From the IMG/VR virus record IMGVR_UViG_3300002026_000057: a stretch of 11,202 nucleotides of DNA; one strand, given 5' to 3'. Shown here piece by piece: positions 1 to 11,200 of this stretch (within the stretch, counting starts at the first letter, position 1; each line of letters begins with the position of its first letter). Source of the DNA: a virus. Lineage: Duplodnaviria > Heunggongvirae > Uroviricota > Caudoviricetes. A program made the translations under genes and the position numbers. The notes under the pieces were generated by a model that worked only from the letters and a program-made list of their open reading frames with translations, searched no databases and was not told where the DNA came from.

Positions 1-1932
1 TTCAACTTTTGGAACAATAGCTTTTCCATTTATCATCAATGGAACTTTTATTATTTCTGTCGGATTGATGTTAAAAGGAATTCTCTTAATCCTTTCATCT
101 AATATTTCTAGTGCCTTTTTGTAATAATCGGGAGGGTTTTCATTAGTAAAATATCTAGCCTGTTTACATCTTCTACCGTGAGTAGAAGTTGAATATTCAC
201 ATGTTACCCTATCAACTGTCCCACATCTTAATGAAACTATCATAGAATCAGGGTTTCCAATATATCCCGCAACACAATGGTGCATATATCCACCTTCATC
301 CGAATATTCTTCACTTGTTTTTAGTAATTTAGGATAAAAAATATATTTTGTAAATGAAGGGACAAAATTCATATACATTCTTTCATATTCTCTTTGATCC
401 TTCAGGTCTGGAAGATATGCTAATGGACGTTCGTTGGCAACAACAAACTCAATAGGTTCTTCAATTTCATCAATCACTTGTTTTTCATATAAAAGGTGTG
501 TGGAATATCCTTTCTTAACACTTCTTTGTAGTACTGAAAGTCTAGTATGTTCGGTCATAAAATTATCCTTTGTTTTTACAGATAATGATAAATCGGGATA
601 ATACTGACGTAATTCTTCAATCATATTAAAATGATCATAAAACTGTTCAATAATACCGAAGACGGGTGAAGTTTGTGCTGTACTGTCATTTATAATATGA
701 ACTAAATTTTCTATTTCAGTCTTAGACAAATCACGATTTTTGTAGTTCTTAGCCTCTATCAATAAACGTCGAAATCCTGAACCTGGTTCATCAAAAGGCG
801 ATGCAGTTATTCTTTTGAAGAACACATCATTAATACTACCAATATGTTTTGAGAAATTATCACCCAATAATAAACACAGCAACATTAATTGTCTTAAATC
901 CGTATTTGGATGGTTATGTAATATTTTTACAGTAACCTTAGACAATATTCCAACCCTATCAAGAATGGCTGCAACTAATTTCCTATCATTCTTTTTTAAA
1001 TACCTTTCGGAAGGATAATAAGATCTCATTAACTTCAACCCATCGTTTGGAAGTTTAATTCCTTTTAACTCAGCAAATTTAACCATCCAATAGGTTATAA
1101 AATCTTTAACATAACTATCATAGCCCATATTATTAATCATTAAAGTATCAGAGATGGCGTCTTTAAATTGCCGATCATCAAATATTTCAATGAAATCTTT
1201 ATAATATTTCGACCCATTAGTTAATGAAAATGTACCCGCTTTCAAAATTGAAAGGAGTGCGTGTTCTAAAGATCCAAAAGAGTTTGAAAAAAATGATTTA
1301 TTCTTCCTGCGTGATTCGAATATTACAACCAAGAAATTTCCCTTTACCATATCAATTTTTATCGTGGTACTAGTGGAAGTCTTCCGAAAATATTTTGAAT
1401 TTACATTCCGGGTTTTTGAAATATTGTATTGTTTTATTGTAACTATATTGGCTTCCCGTTTTATCCATCGTTCAGTTTTAAAAATTTCAATTGAGGAAAA
1501 TGGATTATTATAATGCCTTTTAATTTGTTTGTCCTTTATTGTTTCGAAATTATCAAATTTAGAATTCGTGGTTATTTTTTTTGCTGACACTAATTTAATA
1601 ACTTCGCGTTCAATTTCAGGTTGTCCTTTTATTCCATAATGTATCGATTTACTGTTCGGAGTAGTTGTGTAAAAAAAATGTCTACTATTCTTACGAAAAA
1701 GATTAAGTGTCTTAATATTGGGGGTTGAATCGTTATTAATAACCGCAGATACAACAAACTGTTCTGGTTTTACAAGTAGTGTTTTTGGTAAAGTTCTATC
1801 ATCAAACGGGTCTACGTGATCTAGTTCCAAATCGTCACTATCGAATATTATACTTTTCTTGCCTAAATTCGAATAATTTTTGAACGGATAAATCCGTGCA
1901 TAACTAAACTCCTGTTTATACTCACTATTCAT
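1..1932 (-). CDS. Large PcfJ-like domain protein (at least 644 aa; 3' end runs off the window)
   Basis: Manual translation from ATG at 1932 (MNSEYKQEFSYARIYPF...) stays open to position 1, and the Dam TAA at 1948-1950 is the in-frame upstream stop. C-terminal PKLLKTSEEYSDEGGYMHHCVAGY (motif at 262-297) followed by SLR...RVTCEY...CKQARYFTNENP matches the PcfJ signature EG-x2-M-x-HCV-x2-Y. Absent from the ORF track because no stop lies in the window. Confidence 0.85.
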   Translation of the reverse strand, partial: MNSEYKQEFSYARIYPFKNYSNLGKKSIIFDSDDLELDHVDPFDDRTLPKTLLVKPEQFVVSAVINNDSTPNIKTLNLFRKNSRHFFYTTTPNSKSIHYGIKGQPEIEREVIKLVSAKKITTNSKFDNFETIKDKQIKRHYNNPFSSIEIFKTERWIKREANIVTIKQYNISKTRNVNSKYFRKTSTSTTIKIDMVKGNFLVVIFESRRKNKSFFSNSFGSLEHALLSILKAGTFSLTNGSKYYKDFIEIFDDRQFKDAISDTLMINNMGYDSYVKDFITYWMVKFAELKGIKLPNDGLKLMRSYYPSERYLKKNDRKLVAAILDRVGILSKVTVKILHNHPNTDLRQLMLLCLLLGDNFSKHIGSINDVFFKRITASPFDEPGSGFRRLLIEAKNYKNRDLSKTEIENLVHIINDSTAQTSPVFGIIEQFYDHFNMIEELRQYYPDLSLSVKTKDNFMTEHTRLSVLQRSVKKGYSTHLLYEKQVIDEIEEPIEFVVANERPLAYLPDLKDQREYERMYMNFVPSFTKYIFYPKLLKTSEEYSDEGGYMHHCVAGYIGNPDSMIVSLRCGTVDRVTCEYSTSTHGRRCKQARYFTNENPPDYYKKALEILDERIKRIPFNINPTEIIKVPLMINGKAIVPKVE

Positions 1933-1947
1933 TTTAAATGATTTTAA

Positions 1948-2748
1948 TTAAACAACATAGTTGTAATATAAAAATTCTGTTTTTGTTTTTGGTTTAAAAT
2001 TTCCGTCTATGGTCTTTACTTCAAAACTAACCCTCTTAAATCCATTATCCATCAACTTGTCATAAAGGTCACAATGATATCCACTAATAAGAATCTTTGC
2101 CTCACTCTTAATGACAGTGTCTATGAACTCAATATGTCCCTGTCTGTCCATATCAACCTTATATCGGGTACTGGTTCGTGTGGATTGTTCATATGGAGGA
2201 TCAGCATAGATAAAAACATTTTTCCTGTTATATTTTTCGATTAATTTTGTCCCATCCATATTGGTTACAATAACTTTGGAAAGTCTATCATGTAGTTCTG
2301 ACAACCTATCAATAGAAGACAAAAAATCGGAAATCGATTTACTCATTCCTCTTCTGATGTATGTATTCTTTGAGAAGCCTCCAACCCCATTATGAGATGT
2401 ACGATTCACATAAAAAAAACAAAAAGCCCGCTCGTCTATTGGTAAGTCGTTACGTTTTAGTTTTTCCTTGAGTTCTGATCGAATGTCTTCTGAATAAAAG
2501 GCAAGATCACATCTTTCTTTAAATACTTTAAACATATCCGGGTCAGATAACACCTTATATAAAGAATATACATTTTGATCCATATCATTGTATATCTCAA
2601 TAGGAACGGGATCTTTCTTTAATCCAATGCTGTATGAACCCCCAAATGGTTCTATGTATGTGTCATATTCTTCCCTGTTTGGGAAATATTCAATTATATT
2701 GTTGAACATTGTTCCTTTTCCTCCAAAATACTTAATGGGTGAATTCAT
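1948..2748 (-). CDS. dam: Dam/D12-class N6-adenine DNA methyltransferase (orphan; target unknown)
   Basis: N-terminal SPIKYFGGK (motif X), YIEPFGGS (SAM-binding motif I), EIYNDMD (motif II) and IYADPPY (catalytic motif IV) in alpha-class order. The start overlaps the upstream stop (TAATG at 2746-2750). Symbol denotes family only; GATC specificity is not established. Confidence 0.92.
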   Translation of the reverse strand: MNSPIKYFGGKGTMFNNIIEYFPNREEYDTYIEPFGGSYSIGLKKDPVPIEIYNDMDQNVYSLYKVLSDPDMFKVFKERCDLAFYSEDIRSELKEKLKRNDLPIDERAFCFFYVNRTSHNGVGGFSKNTYIRRGMSKSISDFLSSIDRLSELHDRLSKVIVTNMDGTKLIEKYNRKNVFIYADPPYEQSTRTSTRYKVDMDRQGHIEFIDTVIKSEAKILISGYHCDLYDKLMDNGFKRVSFEVKTIDGNFKPKTKTEFLYYNYVV

Positions 2749-3935
2749 TAAATTAAATTATTTTCAATCATTTTATCAATTACCATTTTAGGTGATATCT
2801 TTCTAGTACATTCAAAATTTTTATTAGTGGGGCAAAAATCTTTATGATGACAACATAAATTATCTGCATGTTCTTCAGAGTTATAGCACCCGCCACAAAC
2901 ATTCTCATTTTTGATTCTTATATTATCTTCTTGGAATTCATTCGACACAACGGTAAATCCAGAAATCATAACTGTTTTTTTACCAAGAGCCCAATTTAAC
3001 CAAGATAATCCTGAGCTAACACCAATGAAAAATTCAGCATGTTTCATATATTGCATCCTATCAATTAATGTGTAGTCACCGTTTCTTTTAATAATACCAT
3101 TTAATTCTGATTTTTCCTTAGAAATTGATATAATTTCATATCCCCTACTTTTTAATTCACTTATAAGATTCTTCCATCCCACTTGATTGTTCCACAATTT
3201 CATTGTTGGCCCTGAAGCGAATTCTGAAATACAAATATATTTCCCCATTATTGGACGATCTAAATTTATCTCAAAATGTGGCCTTATTTCTTTATATTCC
3301 AACCCCAGTACATTAGACACCTGTTTTTGTATTGGTATCAATAAAGGATGTTCGGGATTATTATCCACATCAAAAAATGTTAGTCCCTTAATATATTTTA
3401 CGGGTACTTTATTATATATGTTATTGTGGGAGTTATTAATTTTATCAATTCCTTTATCAAATGTATCCATATCTATTCCAATGGACACACTATAATGTGC
3501 GTATTGTACACCATATTCATTTAGTGGTAATCCAATATTCATCCATTTAATATTAGGATAATAATCTTTAAGAAACCACCAAAAATTAGTTGCAACCGTT
3601 AAATTACAATTATGTTTTTTTCTAAATTCTTCAAAATATGGAGCGTGGGCTATATTATCCCCCAAAGCCCTACTCGTTGAAGCTATTAGAACATTTTTCC
3701 CTCGACAATCAAATGTTTCAGTAAATACCTCAATCCCATTATGGAGAACAACAATCTTCCATTCCGTAAAATATTTCCTATTTGATCTTGTCCAATGATT
3801 ACAAGTAATTTCAGATTGATGAATTAATGTATTAGTTTTATTATCAAAAAATTGAACCAAATATACGTTATTATCTTCTCCAAGAATTTCAAGAGATGCA
3901 CCATAATTAAAATCTGAAATAAATTTAGTTTCCAT
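2748..3935 (-). CDS. Autotransporter strand-loop-strand O-heptosyltransferase (Aah/TibC, BAHT family) homologue, divergent paralogue 1
   Basis: SRALGDNIAHAPYFEEFRKKHNC (catalytic Asp loop), KLWNNQVGW, FIGVSSGLSWLNWALG, VMISGFT and C-terminal Cys cluster VCGGCYN...FCP...FECTRKISP. The N-terminal beta-rich segment aligns by eye with paralogue 2 (NHWTRSNRKYFTEWKI vs NHWTRANKKYYIDWKI). Confidence 0.88.
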   Translation of the reverse strand: METKFISDFNYGASLEILGEDNNVYLVQFFDNKTNTLIHQSEITCNHWTRSNRKYFTEWKIVVLHNGIEVFTETFDCRGKNVLIASTSRALGDNIAHAPYFEEFRKKHNCNLTVATNFWWFLKDYYPNIKWMNIGLPLNEYGVQYAHYSVSIGIDMDTFDKGIDKINNSHNNIYNKVPVKYIKGLTFFDVDNNPEHPLLIPIQKQVSNVLGLEYKEIRPHFEINLDRPIMGKYICISEFASGPTMKLWNNQVGWKNLISELKSRGYEIISISKEKSELNGIIKRNGDYTLIDRMQYMKHAEFFIGVSSGLSWLNWALGKKTVMISGFTVVSNEFQEDNIRIKNENVCGGCYNSEEHADNLCCHHKDFCPTNKNFECTRKISPKMVIDKMIENNLI

Positions 3936-3982: not shown

Positions 3983-4357
3983 ATGAGTGTACACATAAAC
4001 GGAAAAACTTTTAACGCTGAATACCTTAAACCCGACCAATTTTCAAAGGGTATGCAAGGTCGAAATAACCTTGATGGTTGTATGGTATTTAAAATGGGAA
4101 AAGGTCACCATTCATTTTGGATGAAAGGTTGCATAATTCCATTAGATATCATTTTTGTATTAAACAAACGAATCAGTATGATTCATCATAATTGTCCAAT
4201 TGAAGACCCTCATCGGATGAATCCGCCTCGTTATACTGGATTAGGGGATCATGTCCTCGAATTCCCTGGCGGAACGTGTAAAGATTGGAAAGTGGGGGAC
4301 AGAGTTAATATGTATCTCGGAGCCCCACAAAATCCTATTAGTCCGAGAGTAGTGTAG
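3983..4357 (+). CDS. DUF192 (COG1430) family protein
   Basis: KGMQGR...GCMVF...HSFWMKGCIIPLDIIFV...YVLE-like HVLEFPGG...KVGDRV matches the DUF192 pattern GLM-x-R...GMLF...FWMKN-x2-IPLDI-x-F. The 3' end overlaps the convergent gene by 20 nt (4338-4357). Confidence 0.9.
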   Translation: MSVHINGKTFNAEYLKPDQFSKGMQGRNNLDGCMVFKMGKGHHSFWMKGCIIPLDIIFVLNKRISMIHHNCPIEDPHRMNPPRYTGLGDHVLEFPGGTCKDWKVGDRVNMYLGAPQNPISPRVV

Positions 4358-4769
4358 ACAGTTTTTCGAGCTCTATATTAGTTCTCTTGTCTTCACTCAT
4401 CAAACTATTTAATTTCTTTTCAACTTCCCTCAATTCATTAACCTGACGTTGTGCCTGATTTTGTTTAATCTTTAATACAATATCATCCCTCCAATCTTCC
4501 AAAGTGAATCCGTGCCATGCGTTGTTAAAAACAACATCATATTTTTCAGCAACACTTTGAGATTTTTCAATTCTTGTTTCTAGATCCACTAGAATACTGA
4601 ACAAGAGTTCCGGGGTTGCAACGTTCAAATTTATCCTTGTTTGTGTACCATCTATCGGTAAGGATAAATTGGTTTTAAATGAAGGGTTTTTTATCTTTGA
4701 GATTTGAGCCTTCTTTTCTTCAACTTTCGTTAAAAGTTGTAACACTAAGTTGTCATTTTTCTTTGCCAT
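4338..4769 (-). CDS. Hypothetical 143-aa protein, coiled-coil at both ends
   Basis: Open frame coupled to the upstream gene by TAATG (4767-4771). Heptad-like VNELREVEKKLNSLMSEDKRTNIELEKL and a central GFTLEDWRDDI segment. Confidence 0.8.
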   Translation of the reverse strand: MAKKNDNLVLQLLTKVEEKKAQISKIKNPSFKTNLSLPIDGTQTRINLNVATPELLFSILVDLETRIEKSQSVAEKYDVVFNNAWHGFTLEDWRDDIVLKIKQNQAQRQVNELREVEKKLNSLMSEDKRTNIELEKLSTLLSD

Positions 4770-5920
4770 TATACTATTTTTTTAAATCCATTTTTATATA
4801 CTCTTACTAACATTCCATAATTCTGCATTAATTCTTCTTTGGAGAAAGTTCCTTCGGAAGTAGTATTATTTCTTGTGTGCCAAGAATATACCGAATTAGT
4901 ATCCCGATAAATTTCATATTCTTCGAAAGGCGCGTTGGTTCTTTTTATATTTTTCCTTGAGTTCACAAAATCCTCAAGAGTTCTTATATTCCCAAACCTA
5001 TAAACATAGGTACTATAATACAAACCCCTTTCGAAATGTTCTTTCAACCATTTTTCACTAAAAGGCTCAACCACCAAATGATCCGCCAAAGAAGCATAAA
5101 TGGAATTCAAGAATGTATCAACATAATCAGGAAACTTAGGATTTGGCGATTCGGAAATACATTTCTTTATCAAATTCATTGAAGAAACAAATTCATATCT
5201 TAATCCTTCTTCCTCAGTATCATGTGTAACAAAAACATGCTTCTTTTGGGGAGTAACAACGTAGTTTCTATCTTTTTCTATTTTTGTAACATTATTGTAT
5301 GTGTCTTCATATACATTGTATCGACCTATATAAACCCATTCTTGCATTCTGCCAGTAAGATAGGTATATCCCTCTTTCAGATCTCTTGCACTGAATTTTA
5401 CTGACTGCAAATCTGTGAATTCTTTACACATTTTATAATCGGGGGAAGATACAGGTAATAACACCAAATCCTTACCATCCCAAGAATAAACAAATTCACC
5501 CTCTAGTCCTTTACCCTTATAAGAACTACATTCTTGAAGGATATAAAGAAGATTTGGAATTGTAATTTCAAACTCCCATCCCCTTGGGTCATAAACCCTG
5601 GAATAGGTTTGACGATGATTCCAACCACTACTGTAACCTCCGGCTTTTTTGTTTAAGACAAACCCTTCGGTTGGAACATTATCAAATTCAATTGGTTTAA
5701 CACTATCATCGTGAATACCCTCTTCACGTACTCCGGATTCAGAATTCCACGTAGCATAAGGACTACCTTCTTTATGCCTCCAACTCTCCCAAGACCCCTC
5801 TTTCCTCCAAACTTTACCATCGTGATAAATGATATAACCTAACTTACCTGTGTAAGTGTCACCGCGTTTCTGTAACCCGACTTTACATTTTTCGGGAATA
5901 AATAATTGTGTTTTTGACAT
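4769..5920 (-). CDS. Hypothetical 383-aa phage-type protein with a Trp/Gly/Tyr/Arg-rich N-terminal domain
   Basis: Long open frame with TAATG overlaps at both ends. The N-terminal segment (RKEGSWESWR, GFVLNKKAGG, WNHRQ, RVYDPRGWEFEIT..NLL.IL, GEFVYSWDGKDLVLLP) looks like a conserved domain; no function recognised. Confidence 0.85.
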   Translation of the reverse strand: MSKTQLFIPEKCKVGLQKRGDTYTGKLGYIIYHDGKVWRKEGSWESWRHKEGSPYATWNSESGVREEGIHDDSVKPIEFDNVPTEGFVLNKKAGGYSSGWNHRQTYSRVYDPRGWEFEITIPNLLYILQECSSYKGKGLEGEFVYSWDGKDLVLLPVSSPDYKMCKEFTDLQSVKFSARDLKEGYTYLTGRMQEWVYIGRYNVYEDTYNNVTKIEKDRNYVVTPQKKHVFVTHDTEEEGLRYEFVSSMNLIKKCISESPNPKFPDYVDTFLNSIYASLADHLVVEPFSEKWLKEHFERGLYYSTYVYRFGNIRTLEDFVNSRKNIKRTNAPFEEYEIYRDTNSVYSWHTRNNTTSEGTFSKEELMQNYGMLVRVYKNGFKKIV

Positions 5921-7062
5921 TATAATTTTACTTTAGAATTAGACATTACTCCCTGAACAATAAGTTCAACGAAATCGATTGAATCGGGGGAATATGAATT
6001 ATATATTTTTTTGAATTTTGTATTCAATTTCTCATATTCAAACCGGAAATTTTTTCTTTGATCAAGGCAGGTTACCACAAGATTTTTGGGTAAACCATCG
6101 GAATATATATTATCGAGTTCGAATGAATGGTTAAGCAAGTCATAATCAATTTCACTAACCTTGAAATTCTTTTGCCATTCGTTGAACTTATTAATTTCAT
6201 CTTCAGTGTTAATGAGTTCAATTTTATCTTCGTTACTCATCCACCCAGCCCCATGTCTTGTTTGATAACAACGTGTGATATAGAATACTTCAATATCATC
6301 TATTCCAAGATTTCTGGCAATTGTAATAGCGTTTTTTGATGTGGTGTTGGAATATGTGACATTAGGAAATATTCCATGATCCATATCCAATAAAATACCC
6401 TGAGAACCTTCGAAAACTATGTTCTCATATTGTTTTAAGAAACTGTAAGGTTTAACATTGAATTCAATCTTTTCAACGTACTTCCAGAAGTATGTTGATT
6501 CCTCATCATAGATTTCTTTTAATTTCTTTAATTTCGGATAATCGTCTCCGATTAAATCCACATAATACTTGTATACCGAATTAACCTTTTCTTTAAGTGA
6601 AGGTAAATGTAATAGATCAACGCCATATACTTTATAAGGAGTTTCGATATTTCTTTTCATTGTTGCTCCCACACCAAGGCCACACGACCCATGATTAGTG
6701 ATTGGGGCAATTAATCGGTTGTATGCAACATCGGCAGGCGTCGTTACATTAACCAATGGATGGATATAAAATTCAATTTGACCGATTTTTTCGTACAACT
6801 CATATGCTTCTCGATACATCGTAACAGGATATATACTGCAATAATGAGATAAATAGGAGGGCACACCTCTCAGTGTGCCACTCCCAAAACTTGAATGAAT
6901 ATGACTAACGCCATTGATTTTAACATTATGACCAGCCTGTTGACCACCAGAAAATCTGACGACAATAGTTGATTTTGGATTTTTACTACAAAGGAAATCG
7001 GTTGTTATACCTTTTCCTTCATCACCCCAAATTGATCCGATTACAATCTTAGCGTTATTCAT
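5920..7062 (-). CDS. purA: Divergent adenylosuccinate synthetase (PurA)-like GTP-dependent ligase
   Basis: P-loop WGDEGKG, RFSGGQQAGH, HGSCGLGVG, FEGSQGILLDMDHG.FP.VT.SNTT, YQTRHGAG and VTCLD all align to PurA motifs. The aspartate-binding loop (EFGATTGRxRR in E. coli) is replaced by EINKFNEWQKNFK. Family is certain, canonical activity doubtful. Confidence 0.9.
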   Translation of the reverse strand: MNNAKIVIGSIWGDEGKGITTDFLCSKNPKSTIVVRFSGGQQAGHNVKINGVSHIHSSFGSGTLRGVPSYLSHYCSIYPVTMYREAYELYEKIGQIEFYIHPLVNVTTPADVAYNRLIAPITNHGSCGLGVGATMKRNIETPYKVYGVDLLHLPSLKEKVNSVYKYYVDLIGDDYPKLKKLKEIYDEESTYFWKYVEKIEFNVKPYSFLKQYENIVFEGSQGILLDMDHGIFPNVTYSNTTSKNAITIARNLGIDDIEVFYITRCYQTRHGAGWMSNEDKIELINTEDEINKFNEWQKNFKVSEIDYDLLNHSFELDNIYSDGLPKNLVVTCLDQRKNFRFEYEKLNTKFKKIYNSYSPDSIDFVELIVQGVMSNSKVKL

Positions 7063-7068
7063 AGTTTC

Positions 7069-7221
7069 TTATTCAGCAGGTTCGTTTTCCTGTGGTTCAG
7101 TCGTTACAACATCTTCAGTAGTTTCATTAACTACTTCAGTTGTTTCTTTAACCACTTCTTTTGCGTCGTCGGCAGCCATTTCCTCGAAAGACTGCGGATT
7201 GTTTCTGTTAACAGTTCCCAT
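7069..7221 (-). CDS. Small acidic protein, 50 aa (MGTVNRNNPQSFEEMAADDAKEVVKETTEVVNETTEDVVTTEPQENEPAE)
   Basis: Fills the gap between vWA and the PurA-like gene: ATG 2 nt after the vWA stop, TAA 6 nt before the PurA-like ATG. 14 D/E vs 3 K/R. Below the ORF-track length cutoff. Confidence 0.7.
   Translation of the reverse strand: MGTVNRNNPQSFEEMAADDAKEVVKETTEVVNETTEDVVTTEPQENEPAE
7099..7158 (-). repeat. In-frame 21-bp tandem repeat (EVVKETT / EVVNETT / degenerate EDVVTT)
   Basis: Units 7138-7158 and 7117-7137 are 18/21 identical; a degenerate third unit lies at 7099-7116. Confidence 0.75.
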
Positions 7222-7223
7222 AG

Positions 7224-8117
7224 TTATAACATAATTTTTGGTTCATCTTTTTTCTTAGTACCACTATCTGTGTCACTGATAACAGGTGACGACTTAGTGT
7301 CGTGAGAGATTCTTGACTCATAGTGAGAGACAATTGTATTTGCAATAACTTCACCTACTTTGGTGTAATCATTAACCTGAATACAACGTTGCCCAAGAAG
7401 TTTTTGCCAATATCCAAGTGAAGAGTGACCATTAGATCCTTCCATAATATGGATGTGGAAAACTTCATATTTCTCCTGAGCCATTTCAAGGAGTTCTTTA
7501 TCGGTATAATTTGACTGAGCACCGTTACCCATAAGTTCATCGATCGCGTTTTTCGGCAAAGTCCTCAAACAAGGTTCATCACCAATGGTAAAAAGGAAAC
7601 CCTTCTCACCACGCTTTTCAAATGCGTCGGTAACGGTATGTTTAGCTGCGAAATACCAAGCCAAAAAATAACTTTCACCAGCGTTACCACCACCACGACC
7701 TTCAAGCCATGTCCGGGTTAACCACAAATCAAGTTCTTCATCACCGCTTTCGAATTGACCAACCTGTAATGGAGCGTTATCATATTCATGATCACCAATT
7801 CCTAAGAAAAGGATGGAAGGATCAGAAATACCTTTTTGAATGAGATTACCAACCATATTTGGAAGTCCGTCCTTTACTAATTCGTGAGGAATTTTCCTCA
7901 TAGAACCAGTCTCATCAAGACCTATAATGATCGGTAAAGATTTTGGATGTGCAACGGAATCTCTGGCTTCACGAATAAGAGCCTTTGAAGGTACCATTGA
8001 CTCATGGATCTCACCTTTCTTATTTTGTACAAAAATATCGTCAGCGGATTTGGTGTAATAGCCCATTGAGGCTCCGCGAACTGTACGACTTTCGTGGCTA
8101 TACGAGCTATGACCCAT
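7224..8117 (-). CDS. von Willebrand factor A (vWA) domain protein with intact MIDAS
   Basis: Beta1-MIDAS PIIIGLDETGSM, then FLGIGD, EGRGGGNAGESY and FLFTIGDEP in vWA order. N-terminal MGHSSYS extension and REARDS..HP.S segment. Confidence 0.85.
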   Translation of the reverse strand: MGHSSYSHESRTVRGASMGYYTKSADDIFVQNKKGEIHESMVPSKALIREARDSVAHPKSLPIIIGLDETGSMRKIPHELVKDGLPNMVGNLIQKGISDPSILFLGIGDHEYDNAPLQVGQFESGDEELDLWLTRTWLEGRGGGNAGESYFLAWYFAAKHTVTDAFEKRGEKGFLFTIGDEPCLRTLPKNAIDELMGNGAQSNYTDKELLEMAQEKYEVFHIHIMEGSNGHSSLGYWQKLLGQRCIQVNDYTKVGEVIANTIVSHYESRISHDTKSSPVISDTDSGTKKKDEPKIML

Positions 8118-8476
8118 TATTCAACTCCTCCCGTAAAAAGTTCGGAATATCTTTTGGAAGCGATATCCAACTTAATTTCAAGTTCACGAATCCTAAGACC
8201 GAGTTCGAGGTCTTTTGCAACAAATGCTTTTGCATTGAAATCGGATTGTGAAATAATTGTGGTTGTTGAAGTTCCTCCGAGATCCAACATAGCATCACGT
8301 TCCCGTTTTGCAACTTTGAGTTCGGTTAAAATGTCTTCAACTTCACGTTTGAAAATGAGTTCAGCGTCTTCGGCAATTGCCAAGGCACGGTCGTCACGAA
8401 TCTGTTTGTTGTTCCTTCTTAATGAGGACACGAATGAACCTTTAAGTTCATTTAATTGTTCTGATGGTGTTTCCAT
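8117..8476 (-). CDS. Hypothetical 119-aa helical/coiled-coil protein, first gene of the operon
   Basis: A-rich initiation region (AAAAATTAAAAAAA-ATG), downstream of a consensus promoter, TAATG-coupled to vWA. Amphipathic heptads (REVEDILTELKVAKRERDAMLDL; LGLRIRELEIKLDIASKRYSELF). Confidence 0.85.
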   Translation of the reverse strand: METPSEQLNELKGSFVSSLRRNNKQIRDDRALAIAEDAELIFKREVEDILTELKVAKRERDAMLDLGGTSTTTIISQSDFNAKAFVAKDLELGLRIRELEIKLDIASKRYSELFTGGVE

Positions 8477-8501
8477 TTTTTTTAATTTTTAATTGTTATT
8501 A

Positions 8502-8515
8502 TGTGATTTATCACA
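8502..8515. promoter_or_regulatory. Palindromic operator-like site TGTGAT-TT-ATCACA
   Basis: Perfect 6-bp inverted repeat with a 2-nt centre, lying between the -7 element (8527-8534) and the first ATG (8476) of the operon; no U-tract follows on either strand. Confidence 0.5.
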
Positions 8516-8526
8516 AATTGAAAGTA

Positions 8527-8558
8527 CAAAAATAAATAATGTTTTTGAGACTGCCAAA
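8527..8558 (-). promoter_or_regulatory. Bacteroidota sigma-A consensus promoter for the vWA/PurA-like operon
   Basis: Minus strand TTTG (8555-8558), 20-nt spacer, TATTTTTG (8527-8534); an exact match to the Bacteroides/Flavobacterium consensus TTTG-N19-21-TAnnTTTG. Confidence 0.8.
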
Positions 8559-8561
8559 TTT

Positions 8562-9206
8562 TTAGAAAAGATATTTTACTTTAGGTTTAGTTTTTTCGAG
8601 AACTATGAAATAAGAATGAAATTTTCTGGCATGTTCTTGTTTATTCCACTTGCCGCCAAAACTATTAATACGCATTTTTGCTACTAAAATAAACAGGTCT
8701 CTTGGATAAAACCCAATTTTCAACGCCATATTCATAATCATCACATGAGTAAAATGATTTTTACCACCTGAAACGGTATCCTGACATTTCATTATTACTA
8801 ACCCATCTTTCTCGCAGACCCGATAAAGCTCTTGTAATGTATTATAATAGTTGGTGGTTAATTTCTCATATGTGGTATAGCCCTCGAATCTCTTGGCAAT
8901 AACTGAACTACCCTCTTTGTTTTCTTTGTACATTTTACCACTTATTACAAATGGTGGATCATACATTATACTTTTCATTGTTCCGTCTTCAAACGGTAAA
9001 TTCTCAGAATCGGCTTGGATTGTATCTTCGGTTATTGGCACTAAATCGGTTTTAATTTTCGGCCCCTTTATATCTTTCCAAAATAATCCACGGGAATATG
9101 TACAATCAAGATCAAACTGTTCAATGTTATACAATTCCATTATATTCTTAATAACATCGTGGTTTGTATAATACACACTCCTTACGGGTACAAAGTCTTT
9201 ATCCAT
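8562..9206 (-). CDS. Small phage-type amino (m6A or m4C) DNA methyltransferase (orphan)
   Basis: SAM-binding DLDCTYSRGLFW (DxTY-G/S-xGxFW type), ADSENLPFEDG, and catalytic SIMYDPPF, in motif I then motif IV order. DNA as the substrate is inferred from the family. Confidence 0.8.
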   Translation of the reverse strand: MDKDFVPVRSVYYTNHDVIKNIMELYNIEQFDLDCTYSRGLFWKDIKGPKIKTDLVPITEDTIQADSENLPFEDGTMKSIMYDPPFVISGKMYKENKEGSSVIAKRFEGYTTYEKLTTNYYNTLQELYRVCEKDGLVIMKCQDTVSGGKNHFTHVMIMNMALKIGFYPRDLFILVAKMRINSFGGKWNKQEHARKFHSYFIVLEKTKPKVKYLF

Positions 9207-9291: not shown

Positions 9292-9879
9292 ATGGGTTGT
9301 GGGATATACAAGATTGAAAATTCAATTGATGGTAAAATTTATATTGGTAGTTCAGTTAATATTGAATCTCGACAATACAAACATTTTTGGATGTTGAAAC
9401 GTGGATGTCATGATAACCAACATTTACAAAACGCTTTTAATAAATTTAAAGAAAAATCTTTTAATTTTCAAATAATTGAACAGTGCAATGAAACAAAATT
9501 AATTGAAAGAGAAAACTTCCATATTGCCACACTTAAATCGAATACATCCGAATTTGGCTATAATCTTGCGACTGTTAATGAATTTAGAAGAAACACATAC
9601 AATGACTCTGTTAAAATAAAACTTTCGAGATATAATAAGATTAAAAATGGAAATTTTAATACATTTTCATTAACGAACATTAAAACAAATGATATGTTTA
9701 TGTTTGACACATTGGTTGAAGGAGCTAATTATTTAATTTTAAATGGATTTGCAAAAGGAAAACCTCGAAATGTGAGAATGTCAATTTCCAATTGCTTGCG
9801 AGGAATAAAAGTGGATAACGGATCTAAGGGATCAATACGGAAAACTTGTTATAAACATAATTTTGAAATAATAAACTAA
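9292..9879 (+). CDS. Free-standing GIY-YIG homing-type endonuclease with C-terminal NUMOD1/HTH-like DNA-binding module
   Basis: GIYKIENSIDGKIYIGSS, then R and H (ESRQYKH), HDNQHLQNAFNK, catalytic Glu in LIERENFHI, and EFGYNL: the I-TevI/Seg-type catalytic domain. C-terminal FDTLVEGANYL...SISNCLRG...KTCYKHNF resembles a NUMOD1-type HTH. Confidence 0.93.
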   Translation: MGCGIYKIENSIDGKIYIGSSVNIESRQYKHFWMLKRGCHDNQHLQNAFNKFKEKSFNFQIIEQCNETKLIERENFHIATLKSNTSEFGYNLATVNEFRRNTYNDSVKIKLSRYNKIKNGNFNTFSLTNIKTNDMFMFDTLVEGANYLILNGFAKGKPRNVRMSISNCLRGIKVDNGSKGSIRKTCYKHNFEIIN

Positions 9880-10087: not shown

Positions 10088-11200
10088 CTATAATCCGAGT
10101 GCAAGGTTTATTTGTTCAATAACGGTATCGGATGTAATCATTTTAGTACACTCGAATTGTCTATCTGTACCTTTATGGTCGGGACACCAATTCCAATCTC
10201 CAGCGTCCAAAATATGTCTATTAAAACAACCATGACACACATCTTCATTTATTATTCTTCGAATCCCATTTAATGGTTCACAATATGGTTCAGAAAACCC
10301 TGAGATTAATATGGTTTCAGTTCCAACCGCCCAAGCTAACCAAGACAAACCACTACCAACACCAATAAACAATTCTGATTCTTGAAGAATTTTAATAACA
10401 TTCTCAAGAGATCCTGATGGAACTTTGGTAATGCCTTTAGGGTGTTTGTTTCCCATATATCCGTCTTCTTCTTTAGAGACAAGTTTTACTTCGTACCCTT
10501 TTAATACTAAATAATCAACAATTTCTTGCCAACCAGTTGGATTGTTCCAATATTTGGATTGTGCGGTTGAATGAATACCTATTGAAACCACTTTCTTTTT
10601 TTCTGTACTTAATACTGGTAGTAACGGTCTTAATTCAACATAATCTAATCCAAGTATGTCGGATGCGGTTTTACTTAGTGGTTCAGTTTTTGGGTCAAAT
10701 TTGTTTTTATCAAAATCCACTTTATTATCTTTACGAAACCAACCCACTCTATATAGTGCGTAGATATCCTTAACCGTTGATCCTGGTTCAACAAATTCAA
10801 TATTTGGGTATTGATCTTTGAAAAGATTATTATGAAATGTTGAACAAATCACAGTACAATTATGCTCTATTCTAAATTTTTCAACATATGGAATCCACGC
10901 TAATGTGTCTCCTAATGATTTAGACTCAAACCCAATTAAAACCCTACGATTGTTAAAGTCCATTTTATGTTCATAGAAAAAATCAGTATCTAACCCTCTT
11001 ATTCGTATTTTCCAATCAATATAGTATTTCTTGTTTGCCCTTGTCCAATGATTACTTTTAAGATCTGTTTGATGATGAACCTCCCCAGTTTTTAAATCGA
11101 TAAACTCAACATTATAATATCTCGTATTTTTGTCGATAATTTCGACGAAGGGCCCATCTATAAAATTAATATTTAACTGATCTGGGGCGTTCTTTTCCAT
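10088..11200 (-). CDS. Autotransporter strand-loop-strand O-heptosyltransferase (Aah/TibC, BAHT family) homologue, canonical paralogue 2; may extend 5' beyond the window
   Basis: SKSLGDTLAWIPYVEKFR..HNC, STAQSKYWNNPTGWQ, FIGVGSGLSWLAWAVG, ILISGFS and Fe-site VCHGCFN...WCPDHKGTDRQFECTKMIT. Only 2 nt lie upstream of the ATG at 11200, so an N-terminal extension cannot be excluded. Confidence 0.93.
   Translation of the reverse strand: MEKNAPDQLNINFIDGPFVEIIDKNTRYYNVEFIDLKTGEVHHQTDLKSNHWTRANKKYYIDWKIRIRGLDTDFFYEHKMDFNNRRVLIGFESKSLGDTLAWIPYVEKFRIEHNCTVICSTFHNNLFKDQYPNIEFVEPGSTVKDIYALYRVGWFRKDNKVDFDKNKFDPKTEPLSKTASDILGLDYVELRPLLPVLSTEKKKVVSIGIHSTAQSKYWNNPTGWQEIVDYLVLKGYEVKLVSKEEDGYMGNKHPKGITKVPSGSLENVIKILQESELFIGVGSGLSWLAWAVGTETILISGFSEPYCEPLNGIRRIINEDVCHGCFNRHILDAGDWNWCPDHKGTDRQFECTKMITSDTVIEQINLALGL

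What the first reader, a model, noticed from the sequence alone, without database searches (positions are those of the whole stretch)
4338..8558. Six-gene, promoter- and operator-delimited vWA + PurA-like operon: candidate new nucleotide-modifying or counter-defence system
Seen: one consensus host promoter, a palindrome, then 119 aa coiled coil > vWA > 50 aa acidic > PurA-like > 383 aa > 143 aa over about 4.1 kb, with three TAATG overlaps and gaps of only 2 and 6 nt. Knowledge: vWA MIDAS domains capture acidic residues of partner proteins through a metal; phages encode nucleotide-level countermeasures to NAD+/nucleotide-depleting and signalling immunity. I also recall vWA + divergent purA neighbourhoods near NAD/NUDIX genes in bacteria, but cannot verify this here. 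Inference: an immediate-early complex in which vWA recruits a protein substrate or scaffold for the PurA-like ligase, making a modified nucleotide or a nucleotidylated protein that rewires purine pools or blocks host defence.
Basis: inference. Interest (0 to 1): 0.75.

Follow-up and report, generated by a model that had tools for sequence, protein, structure and literature searches.

The report
Phage vWA plus PurA-like gene module
The six tightly packed phage genes are real, but only three of them (a small helical protein, a metal-binding vWA protein and an adenylosuccinate-synthetase-like enzyme that has lost its aspartate pocket) form a conserved, undescribed module shared by many large phages and bacteria, where it sits among NAD+/ADP-ribose recycling genes.

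Summary
Observation confirmed: six minus-strand genes (8476-4338) with three TAATG overlaps and gaps of 2 and 6 nt. They sit behind a Bacteroidota-type promoter (TTTG-N20-TATTTTTG) and a short palindrome, and end at a hairpin.

Interpretation partly supported.
- The 297-aa protein has a vWA fold (AF2 pLDDT 92.7; every top PDB hit is a vWA/I-domain).
- The 380-aa protein is neither PurA nor PurZ. It keeps the GTP and phosphotransfer core, but the aspartate loop and the IMP 5'-phosphate ligands are replaced.
- The six genes are not one system. The conserved unit is g119 + vWA + PurA-like. vWA and PurA-like lie next to each other in Mycobacterium cluster C, Rhizobium and Vibrio phages, in jumbo-phage contigs, and in hundreds of bacterial species.
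- The 50-aa acidic gene occurs only in the nearest relatives.
- The 383-aa and 143-aa genes are a separate pair, also found in Bacillus phages that lack the PurA-like gene.
- In Flavobacteriia the triad lies in NrtR-headed clusters with NADAR, Macro, PARG, Tpt1, ARH and NAMPT/Prs-like genes.

The function is untested. My best guess is a GTP-driven purine-C6 ligase that uses a non-aspartate amine, acting in the NAD+/ADP-ribose conflict.

This scan has noted the same module before on other DNA (282 notes, at least 207 genomes). I found no published description.

The parts
8527..8558 (-). Bacteroidota-type promoter, TTTG-N20-TATTTTTG, oriented into g119
   Evidence: Sequence. Pattern count is 4 against 0.41 expected. 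The -33 and -7 elements are conserved in L006/L007 while the spacer varies.
8502..8515 (.). Palindrome TGTGAT-AA-ATCACA just downstream of the -7 element; a possible operator or 5'-UTR element
   Evidence: Sequence. Only a GTGA-N3-TCAC core is kept in L006/L007. Weak on its own.
8117..8476 (-). g119: small, presumably helical protein; the first gene of the conserved triad (adaptor slot)
   Evidence: Homologues lie directly upstream of the vWA gene in L006, L011, L012 and L013, in 76 of 80 Flavobacteriia loci (median 46% identity) and in 17 of 38 diverse bacterial loci (43-58% identity). Alignment A9. No Pfam, PDB or Atlas match.
7224..8117 (-). vWA-fold protein with a MIDAS-type motif (D68-x-T70-x-S72, D180) and an invariant N-terminal Met-Gly
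   Evidence: AF2 pLDDT 92.7, pTM 0.88. All top Foldseek PDB hits are vWA/I-domains (E 1e-6 to 6e-5). Matches phrog_2971. The family has 1533 clusters at 50% identity. Invariant residues from A2. Starts ATG-GGN in 166 of 166 loci.
7069..7221 (-). g50: acidic 50-aa ORF; a lineage-specific insert between the vWA and PurA-like genes, not part of the conserved module
   Evidence: pI 4.05. Only L006/L007 have a relative, which shares the first ~15 residues but has a non-acidic tail. Vibrio and Mycobacterium phages have unrelated small ORFs in this position, and L004 and L011 have none. Found in 0 of 80 bacterial loci.
5920..7062 (-). PurA-like enzyme with the GTP-dependent phosphotransfer core intact and the aspartate loop and IMP 5'-phosphate ligands replaced
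   Evidence: PF00709 matches residues 6-281 only (4.5e-41). NCBIfam PurA scores 122 bits against a cut-off of 402; PurZ scores 44 against 300. Residue census over 162 vWA-linked homologues. Alignment with E. coli PurA.
4769..5920 (-). g383: mostly beta multidomain protein of unknown function (phrog_2475); a separate module
   Evidence: PHROG match 9.6e-79. Distribution: Bacillus 139 records, Pseudomonas 42, Prevotella Lak phages 15, Vibrio 7. AF2 pLDDT 89.7, but no clear structural relative. Absent from bacterial triad loci.
4338..4769 (-). g143: phrog_2574 protein of unknown function; partner of g383
   Evidence: PHROG match 6.2e-22. tblastn finds 50 Bacillus phage records, each within about 1 kb of the g383 homologue. 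A 142-aa gene follows the g383 homologue in L006.
4292..4328 (-). Hairpin (GUGGGG...CCCCAC) followed by a U-rich tract just after the g143 stop, inside the 3' end of the convergent DUF192 gene; the likely 3' boundary of the transcription unit
   Evidence: Inverted repeat. RNA fold -17.1 kcal/mol, z = -2.7.

Best explanation
The stretch is one probable early transcription unit, driven by a host-type Bacteroidota promoter. It strings together three separable pieces.

(1) A conserved, mobile three-gene module: g119 (small adaptor), a vWA/MIDAS protein and a PurA-like enzyme.
(2) A lineage-specific 50-aa insert.
(3) An unrelated two-gene pair, g383 + g143.

The module's enzyme belongs to a third branch of the adenylosuccinate-synthetase family, distinct from both PurA and PurZ.

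Shown here:
- It keeps the P-loop, the catalytic Asp13 and His41, Gln224, and the guanine-specifying Asp333.
- It has lost the arginine-rich aspartate loop, which is replaced by an invariant [Y/F/W]-Q.
- It has lost two of the IMP 5'-phosphate ligands (T129 to C, R143 to P).
- It has gained an invariant His at position 273.

Inferred from this:
- It still uses GTP to phosphorylate the O6 of a hypoxanthine- or guanine-type base.
- That base sits on a substrate that is not plain IMP.
- An amine other than L-aspartate displaces the phosphate, giving an N6-substituted adenine-type nucleotide.

Also inferred: the vWA protein (intact MIDAS-type motif, invariant N-terminal Gly) works with the enzyme, either presenting the co-substrate or being the target. 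The slot upstream of vWA, filled here by g119 and elsewhere by a J-domain/kinase-like protein, acts as an adaptor.

In Flavobacteriia, the closest cellular relatives, the triad sits inside NrtR-headed NAD+/ADP-ribose salvage and de-ADP-ribosylation clusters. So the phage copy most likely serves the contest over NAD+/ADP-ribose (counter-defence or nucleotide repair). It is unlikely to serve AMP synthesis or DNA base replacement.
For: Architecture.

vWA fold.

Enzyme identity:
- Pfam matches the N-terminal 280 residues only.
- Scores fall below the NCBIfam PurA and PurZ cut-offs.
- The closest PDB relatives are true PurA enzymes, again over residues 1-280 only.
- Census over 162 vWA-linked homologues: G12, D13, G15, K16, G17, H41, Q224, T239 invariant and D333 kept in 161 of 162; N38 to Q in 160; T129 to C in 157; V273 to H in 162; T301 to Q in 162; R303 deleted in 162; R304 and R305 non-basic.

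Coupling of the two genes:
- 218 phage records carry the vWA-like gene and 236 carry the PurA-like gene, with matching host tallies: Mycobacterium 200 vs 201 (plus 1 Mycolicibacterium), Rhizobium 10 vs 10, Vibrio 6 vs 6.
- Most of the remaining PurA-family hits look like host PurA fragments, with 46-99% identity to E. coli PurA.
- The two genes are adjacent in L001-L007, L011 and L013, in 79 of 80 Flavobacteriia loci and in 36 of 38 diverse bacterial loci.

g119: homologues in 76 of 80 and 17 of 38 loci, at 43-58% identity. The alternative J-domain (HPD) plus kinase-like partner is homologous to the mycobacteriophage I3 'kinase'.

Independence of the other genes: g50, g383 and g143 are in 0 of 118 bacterial loci. 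g383 and g143 are paired in Bacillus phages that have no PurA-like gene.

NAD/ADP-ribose context, Pfam on L075 and L015: NrtR, Prs-like, NADAR, Macro, DUF4291, Tpt1, PARG, ADP-ribosylglycohydrolase, SIR2, NAMPT-family. Counts over the 80 loci are. In phages, a NADAR gene lies near the pair in Vibrio phage phiKT1024, and PRTase-like and NMNAT/NUDIX genes lie near it in a Rhizobium phage.
Against: - No member of the family has any biochemical datum that I could find. Substrate, nucleophile and product are all inferred.
- The 11-kb window itself holds no NAD/ADP-ribose gene. Its neighbours are DNA methyltransferases, DUF192, glycosyltransferase-like genes and a GIY-YIG endonuclease.
- In related jumbo-phage contigs the neighbours are ThyX, methyltransferases and PcfJ-like genes. 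The NAD link therefore rests mainly on bacterial copies and a few phages.
- The 80 Flavobacteriia loci are close kin and do not count as independent observations.
- Loss of T129 and R143 could mean that no nucleotide is bound at the IMP site at all.
- Co-transcription is inferred from gene spacing only.
Confidence: 0.6

Rival explanations
1. All six genes form one dedicated system. vWA captures the acidic 50-aa protein or another substrate for the ligase, and g383 and g143 complete the pathway.
For: Tight translational coupling of all six genes behind one promoter. The same six-gene order is kept in the closest relatives L006 and L007. g383 homologues share contigs with PurA-like homologues in this lineage: 12 contig lengths recur between the lists.
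Against: - g50, g383 and g143 are absent from all 118 bacterial triad loci. They are also absent from the neighbourhoods of the pair in Mycobacterium, Rhizobium and Vibrio phages and in L004 and L011.
- g383 and g143 occur together in Bacillus phages that lack the PurA-like gene.
- The acidic tail of g50 is not conserved even in L006.
Confidence: 0.06
2. The PurA-like gene is an ordinary auxiliary metabolic gene: a working adenylosuccinate synthetase that boosts AMP supply during infection.
For: The PF00709 match. All residues of the phosphotransfer step are conserved. Databases annotate its relatives as adenylosuccinate synthase.
Against: - R303 is deleted and R304, R305 and T301 are replaced in 162 of 162 homologues. 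T129 and R143 are replaced as well.
- The NCBIfam PurA equivalog scores 122 bits against a cut-off of 402.
- No purB or other purine-synthesis neighbour was seen.
- An obligate vWA partner has no counterpart in purine synthesis.
Confidence: 0.07
3. It is a PurZ-type enzyme that makes 2-aminoadenine (Z base) or another replacement purine for the phage DNA.
For: PHROG 1211 and RefSeq label the relatives '2-aminooxy adenylosuccinate synthetase'. DNA methyltransferases flank the operon.
Against: - Position 13 is Asp in 162 of 162 homologues, whereas PurZ has Ser there and S14D abolishes selectivity (preprint 10.1101/2025.10.22.683976).
- The NCBIfam PurZ model scores 44 bits against a cut-off of 300.
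- The aspartate loop that PurZ also needs is gone.
- No DatZ, MazZ or DpoZ gene lies in the window.
- The module is common in bacterial chromosomes.
Confidence: 0.03
4. The enzyme acts on a purine base within a polymer or protein-linked nucleotide (tRNA or RNA inosine/guanosine, or ADP-ribosylated guanine), not on a free nucleotide. The vWA protein would act as the substrate-recognition subunit.
For: - The IMP 5'-phosphate ligands T129 and R143 are lost. This would open the site to a larger substrate.
- Carriers are large phages rich in tRNA and RNA-repair genes (earlier notes of this scan; polynucleotide kinase near the pair in phage I3; a TROVE gene in the Vibrio phage).
- NADAR, a guanine de-ADP-ribosylase by published work that I recall, and Tpt1 are frequent neighbours.
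Against: No nucleic-acid-binding domain was detected in any of the three proteins. No precedent exists in the PurA family. Wholly inferential.
Confidence: 0.12
5. The pair is non-catalytic. It would be a nucleotide-binding sponge or regulator that sequesters a signalling or toxic nucleotide.
For: Phage sponges for immune nucleotides are common (my own knowledge of the field). The substrate sites are remodelled.
Against: Every residue needed for GTP binding and phosphoryl transfer is invariant across 162 divergent homologues. That argues for retained catalysis.
Confidence: 0.07

Closest known systems
Adenylosuccinate synthetase PurA (EC 6.3.4.4; Pfam PF00709; E. coli PurA, PDB 1ade/1kjx; Legionella 6bs7)
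   Same: Same fold and same N-terminal 280 residues (E 3e-24 to 6bs7). The GDEGKG P-loop, catalytic Asp13 and His41, Gln224, Thr239 and the T-x-L-D guanine motif are kept.
   Different: - The aspartate loop TTGRRRR is replaced by [Y/F/W]-Q-[K/G].
- T129 to C, R143 to P, V273 to H, K331 to C.
- The insertion that follows the TKLD guanine motif in E. coli PurA, and the STGP motif near its C-terminus, are absent.
- It scores below the equivalog cut-offs.
- It is always paired with a vWA gene and is never in a purine-synthesis context.
PurZ, the N6-succino-2-amino-2'-deoxyadenylate synthase of Z-genome phages (S-2L, PhiVC8; NCBIfam NF038379)
   Same: A phage-borne offshoot of the PurA family with altered substrate choice. 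Automatic pipelines give both the same label.
   Different: PurZ has Ser in place of Asp13 and still uses aspartate; this family keeps Asp13 and has lost the aspartate loop. PurZ travels with DatZ, MazZ and DpoZ; this family travels with a vWA gene. PurZ model score is 44 against 300.
vWA/MIDAS domains (integrin I-domains, collagen VI and VWF A domains; prokaryotic vWA partners of MoxR ATPases or TerY)
   Same: Rossmann-like vWA fold. A DxTxS motif ends strand beta-1 and an Asp follows strand beta-4.
   Different: - No Pfam VWA model matches at the sequence level.
- It carries a conserved extra N-terminal 50 residues beginning with an invariant Met-Gly.
- No AAA+ MoxR partner is present; the partner is a PurA-like enzyme.
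Phage and bacterial NAD+ reconstitution and ADP-ribose processing clusters (NARP1 Adps + Namat; NrtR regulons)
   Same: In Flavobacteriia the triad lies inside NrtR-headed clusters that hold Prs-like and NAMPT-family genes plus NADAR, Macro, PARG, ARH and Tpt1. PRTase-like and NMNAT/NUDIX genes lie near it in Rhizobium phages.
   Different: The triad is not a described component of NARP1 or NARP2. It is absent from the survey of viral NAD/ADP-ribose systems that I searched (PMC9503650). In this window no NAD gene is adjacent.

Membership tests
Adenylosuccinate synthetase PurA (EC 6.3.4.4) | PF00709 fold with the GDEGKG P-loop, catalytic Asp13 and His41 | tested here: met
   Pfam 4.5e-41 over residues 6-281. 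D13, K16, H41 and Q224 are invariant in 162 homologues.
Adenylosuccinate synthetase PurA (EC 6.3.4.4) | L-aspartate-binding loop (T300-T301-G-R303-R-R305 in E. coli; roles as I recall them from the Fromm/Honzatko structural work) | tested here: not met
   R303 is deleted, T301 is Q, and R304 and R305 are non-basic in 162 of 162.
Adenylosuccinate synthetase PurA (EC 6.3.4.4) | IMP 5'-phosphate ligands (N38, T129, R143 of the partner subunit, T239) | tested here: not met
   N38 to Q (160 of 162), T129 to C (157 of 162), R143 to P or other; only T239 is kept.
Adenylosuccinate synthetase PurA (EC 6.3.4.4) | Score above the curated equivalog cut-off | tested here: not met
   NF002223 scores 122 bits against 402; TIGR00184 scores 104 against 395.
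PurZ (Z-base pathway) | [quoted passage not shown] | tested here: not met
   Asp in 162 of 162. The role of S14 is taken from 10.1101/2025.10.22.683976.
PurZ (Z-base pathway) | NCBIfam NF038379 score above cut-off | tested here: not met
   44.3 bits against 300.
PurZ (Z-base pathway) | Companion genes datZ, mazZ and dpoZ in the genome | tested here: inconclusive
   None lies in the 11-kb window or in the related loci examined. The whole phage genome is not held.
vWA / MIDAS domain | vWA alpha/beta fold | tested here: met
   AF2 pLDDT 92.7. The top 50 Foldseek PDB hits are nearly all vWA/I-domains, with probability 1.00.
vWA / MIDAS domain | MIDAS motif: DxSxS after strand beta-1 and Asp after strand beta-4 | tested here: met
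   D68-x-T70-x-S72 (Thr replaces the first Ser) lies at the end of strand 61-68, and D180 follows strand 173-179. All are invariant in 66 sequences. Metal binding itself was not tested.
vWA-MoxR (AAA+) chaperone pairs | Adjacent MoxR-type AAA+ ATPase gene | tested here: not met
   No ATPase lies in the window or next to the vWA gene in any locus examined.
NARP1/NARP2 NAD+ reconstitution pathways | The genes encode Adps (Prs-like) + Namat, or Nampt + Nmnat | tested here: not met
   None of the six proteins matches these families. Such genes are neighbours of the triad only in bacterial loci.

The most novel reading that the evidence does not exclude
The PurA-like enzyme may not make a free metabolite at all. 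In this reading it activates a 6-oxopurine nucleotide with GTP and joins it, through purine C6, to the alpha-amine of the invariant N-terminal glycine of its vWA partner. After Met removal, that glycine would stand in for the alpha-amine of L-aspartate. The result would be a protein-nucleotide conjugate of a kind not described before, used as a decoy, sensor or carrier in NAD+/ADP-ribose-based phage-host conflict.

The observations behind the idea:
- The vWA gene starts ATG-GGN in 166 of 166 loci, and 131 of 150 cluster representatives start Met-Gly, with an aromatic residue at position 6.
- The aspartate loop of the enzyme is lost.
- The two genes are inseparable across the loci examined.

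Nothing tests the idea directly. An earlier check in this scan priced the same idea at 14 in 100.
Probability: 0.1. Interest if true: 0.9.

Novelty: new variant of a known kind. Interest (0 to 1): 0.6.

Why it matters
Databases label thousands of these genes 'adenylosuccinate synthase' or even 'PurZ-like'. This includes every cluster C mycobacteriophage, which are cultured and genetically tractable. The evidence here says both labels are wrong.

The genes mark a third functional branch of a textbook enzyme family. It is tied to a vWA partner and, in bacteria, to the ADP-ribose-sensing NrtR regulon. Working out its product could add a new reaction to the NAD+/ADP-ribose arms race between phages and bacteria. 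It could also reveal a new N6-substituted purine nucleotide or protein-nucleotide adduct.

For annotation, it matters that tight operon packing does not define a system. Half of this 'operon' is unrelated cargo.

Tried and rejected
- Complex prediction of vWA with PurA-like: no verdict (score 0.00, mark 0.32). It is not evidence either way.
- Megablast of the operon against phage records: no match.
- A viral-contig scan with the PurA-like protein: no confirmed relative.
- tblastn of g119 against cultured phages: no match.
- No whole genome is held for the window, and the window's own contig could not be fetched.
- Sequence and profile searches of the PDB for the vWA protein, g383 and g119: nothing meaningful.
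- The g383 structure model is confident. Foldseek found nothing at E <= 0.001, and VIA-align gave only Z 5-6 matches of residues 175-278 to small SH3/Tudor/MazF-like barrels, which is within background. The Atlas gave no lead for g383 or g119.
- PADLOC: only a marginal hit of g119 to PD-Lambda-2_C (E 8e-4 over 40 residues). I treat it as chance.
- hhalign of the g119 family against the J-domain/kinase-like family: no relation (probability 0.2).
- Pfam scan of longer vWA-family members for fused domains: none found.
- Literature searches for vWA + PurA in phages, PurA-like, Kongming counter-measures and the viral NAD/ADP-ribose survey: no description of the module.
- Sequencing runs: no RNA holder listed. 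The DNA comes from microbial-mat metagenomes, so co-transcription could not be checked.
- The E. coli-type promoter and terminator scan: not above shuffled expectation (26 against 20.9 promoter-like sites; 1 against 3.0 terminator-like sites).

Full report
**What is in the sequence.** The window is AT-rich phage DNA (GC 0.27-0.42) from a microbial-mat metagenome. No whole genome is held for it. On the minus strand there are six ORFs:
- g119, 8476-8117
- a 297-aa protein, 8117-7224
- g50, 7221-7069
- a 380-aa protein, 7062-5920
- g383, 5920-4769
- g143, 4769-4338

Three junctions are 1-nt TAATG overlaps, and the other two are gaps of 2 and 6 nt. The 85-nt gap upstream holds TTTG-N20-TATTTTTG (8558-8527), which is the Bacteroidota primary-sigma consensus and not the E. 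coli one. The window has four such sites against 0.41 expected, and none of 200 shuffles reached four. Two of them sit in intergenic gaps and point into genes. In the close relatives L006 and L007 both promoter elements are conserved while the spacer differs.

Just downstream lies TGTGAT-AA-ATCACA (8515-8502). Its arms are short, and only a GTGA-N3-TCAC core recurs in L006/L007, so calling it an operator is weakly founded. A hairpin followed by a U-rich tract sits immediately after the g143 stop (4328-4292; z = -2.7). Co-transcription itself could not be checked, because no RNA run is listed.

**The vWA protein.** No Pfam, NCBIfam or PDB sequence match exists. An AlphaFold2 model built on 66 homologues is very confident (pLDDT 92.7, pTM 0.88). 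Its best PDB matches are almost all vWA/I-domains (E 1e-6 to 6e-5, probability 1.00).

D68-x-T70-x-S72 ends strand 61-68 and D180 follows strand 173-179. These residues are invariant, along with D109, D113, Q118, E123, E148, D164 and K168. This is a MIDAS-type arrangement.

The family is large: 1533 clusters at 50% identity and 3869 at 90%. Predicted-structure relatives include one fused to a U-box.

One striking feature is the N-terminus. The gene starts ATG-GGN in 166 of 166 loci, 131 of 150 cluster representatives start Met-Gly, and position 6 is aromatic.

**The PurA-like protein.** PF00709 matches residues 6-281 only. The best solved relatives are true PurA enzymes, again over the first 280 residues only. 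The NCBIfam PurA equivalogs score 104-122 bits against cut-offs near 400, and the PurZ model scores 44 against 300.

I aligned 162 vWA-linked homologues to E. coli PurA. Residue roles are as I recall them from the E. coli structural literature.
- Invariant: P-loop G12, D13, G15, K16, G17; His41; Gln224; Thr239. Asp333 of the guanine motif is kept in 161 of 162.
- Aspartate loop rebuilt: T300 to Y/F/W, T301 to Q (162 of 162), R303 deleted (162 of 162), R304 and R305 non-basic.
- IMP 5'-phosphate ligands changed: T129 to C (157 of 162), R143 to P or other, N38 to Q (160 of 162).
- V273 is His in 162 of 162, and K331 is Cys in 157.

Asp at position 13 rules out PurZ, which has Ser there. So the first half-reaction, GTP-dependent O6 phosphorylation of a 6-oxopurine, is probably retained. 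Both the non-base end of the acceptor and the amine donor must differ from those of PurA.

**Which genes belong together.** tblastn against cultured phages finds the PurA-like gene in 236 records and the vWA-like gene in 218, with matching host tallies:

| Host group | PurA-like | vWA-like |
|---|---|---|
| Mycobacterium cluster C | 201 | 200 (+1 Mycolicibacterium) |
| Rhizobium | 10 | 10 |
| Vibrio | 6 | 6 |

Most of the other PurA-family hits look like host PurA fragments, with 46-99% identity to E. coli PurA. In annotated examples the two genes are adjacent or separated by one unrelated small ORF. Metagenomic relatives from 124-kb to 345-kb contigs show the same pairing.

In bacterial genomes, at least 578 species carry a vWA relative. 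The PurA-like gene follows it in 79 of 80 Flavobacteriia loci and in 36 of 38 taxonomically diverse loci. The diverse set includes Saprospiraceae, Chitinophagales, Ca. Electronema, Acidimicrobiales, Hahella and Methylococcales.

g119 is also part of the unit. Homologues at 43-58% identity lie directly upstream of the vWA gene in 76 of 80 and 17 of 38 loci and in L006, L011, L012 and L013. That is unusually strong conservation for a small protein. Where g119 is missing, the slot holds a protein of about 290 aa with a J-domain HPD motif and a kinase-like body. This protein is homologous to the 'kinase' upstream of the vWA gene in mycobacteriophage I3. It is unrelated to g119.

**Which genes do not belong.**
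- g50 has a relative only in L006/L007, and the acidic tail is not conserved there. Other lineages have unrelated small ORFs or nothing at that position.
- g383 (phrog_2475) and g143 (phrog_2574) are absent from all 118 bacterial loci.
- g383 and g143 occur as a pair in Bacillus Herelleviridae phages, which have no PurA-like gene. g383 is also found in Lak megaphages, Pseudomonas phages and others.
- In Vibrio phage pv27 the g383 homologue is about 10 kb from the vWA gene.
- g383 folds confidently but matches no known structure above background.

So the 'six-gene system' is a three-gene module with two kinds of hitch-hikers.

**Context and likely role.** The closest cellular copies (54-59% identity for vWA) are in Chryseobacterium and Flavobacterium. 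This fits the Bacteroidota promoter.

There the triad lies in same-strand clusters headed by NrtR, the Nudix-type ADP-ribose-responsive NAD regulator. These clusters also hold Prs-like, NADAR, Macro, DUF4291, Tpt1/KptA, PARG, ADP-ribosylglycohydrolase, SIR2, calcineurin-like phosphoesterase and NAMPT-family genes.

Counts over the 80 Flavobacteriia loci:

| Neighbour | Loci with it (of 80) |
|---|---|
| NrtR | 75 |
| Tpt1 | 67 |
| ARH | 62 |
| NADAR | 61 |
| Macro | 50 |

These loci are close kin and are not independent observations. In phages, a NADAR gene lies near the pair in Vibrio phage phiKT1024, and PRTase-like and NMNAT/NUDIX genes lie near it in a Rhizobium phage.

The window itself has no NAD gene within 11 kb. 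Related jumbo-phage contigs place the pair next to ThyX, methyltransferase and PcfJ-like genes. The NAD/ADP-ribose link for the phage copy is therefore an inference from relatives.

**Mechanism, with status.**
- Shown: fold assignments, residue conservation, gene linkage, neighbourhoods.
- Inferred: the enzyme phosphorylates O6 of a hypoxanthine- or guanine-type base using GTP and passes it to a non-aspartate amine, and vWA and g119 act with it.
- Speculative (about 10%): the amine is the invariant N-terminal glycine of vWA.

A structure-based test of vWA/PurA-like binding gave no verdict and counts neither way.

**Novelty.** I found no paper that describes the module. Public annotation calls it PurA or '2-aminooxy adenylosuccinate synthetase', and both labels fail the tests above. 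This scan has flagged the same module many times on other DNA (282 notes in at least 207 genomes). Earlier follow-ups reached similar conclusions. I re-derived the main ones independently here: the vWA coupling, the loss of the aspartate pocket, the kinase-like alternative partner and the NrtR/NAD context.

I rate it a new variant of a known enzyme kind, embedded in an undescribed three-protein system. Interest is 0.6.

Noticed in passing
window 3983-4357 (+): A DUF192 gene (Pfam 9.3e-14) converges on the operon and overlaps the g143 stop by 20 nt. A DUF192 gene also lies near the vWA/PurA-like pair in L004, L006 and the P0063 contig, so it is a recurrent neighbour in this phage lineage.
   Followed up: partly
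window 1-1932 (-): A 644-aa ORF with a PcfJ-like domain (PF14284, 5.4e-8). In L004 and L005 a PcfJ-like protein of 568 aa lies just downstream of the PurA-like gene, separated from it by one short opposite-strand ORF.
   Followed up: no
window 2748-3935 (-) and 10088-11200 (-): Two paralogous proteins of 370-395 aa with similar N-terminal halves and Cys-rich C-termini (translations). No PHROG hit for the first. Earlier notes of this scan call them BAHT-type glycosyltransferases; I did not test that.
   Followed up: no
window 4993-5024 (-): A third exact TTTG-N20-TAnnTTTG site lies inside g383, 224 nt upstream of the g143 start. It is either an internal promoter or chance.
   Followed up: no
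window 9292-9879 (+), 8562-9206 (-), 1948-2748 (-): A GIY-YIG endonuclease gene (Pfam) and two DNA methyltransferases (phrog_24333 and phrog_56) flank the operon. The methyltransferase at 9206 has its own Bacteroidota-type promoter at 9269-9238.
   Followed up: partly
g383 family (window 4769-5920; L009, L010): g383 belongs to a very large uncharacterised phage family: 3535 clusters at 90% identity. The first ~200 residues are strongly conserved. In Bacillus and Vibrio phages the gene follows a metallo-beta-lactamase or HD phosphohydrolase gene and lies near an ATPase gene.
   Followed up: partly
AlphaFold DB relatives of the vWA protein: One predicted-structure relative (28% identity over residues 1-302) carries a C-terminal U-box domain. 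Other vWA hits are fused to alpha-kinase domains. This hints that the family works in protein-targeting contexts.
   Followed up: no
L111, L132, L157, L096, L145 (about 6000-7000) and L003 4655-5785: The alternative upstream partner of the vWA gene is a ~290-aa protein with an invariant HPD (J-domain-like) motif and a kinase-like body. It is homologous to the annotated 'kinase' of mycobacteriophage I3.
   Followed up: partly
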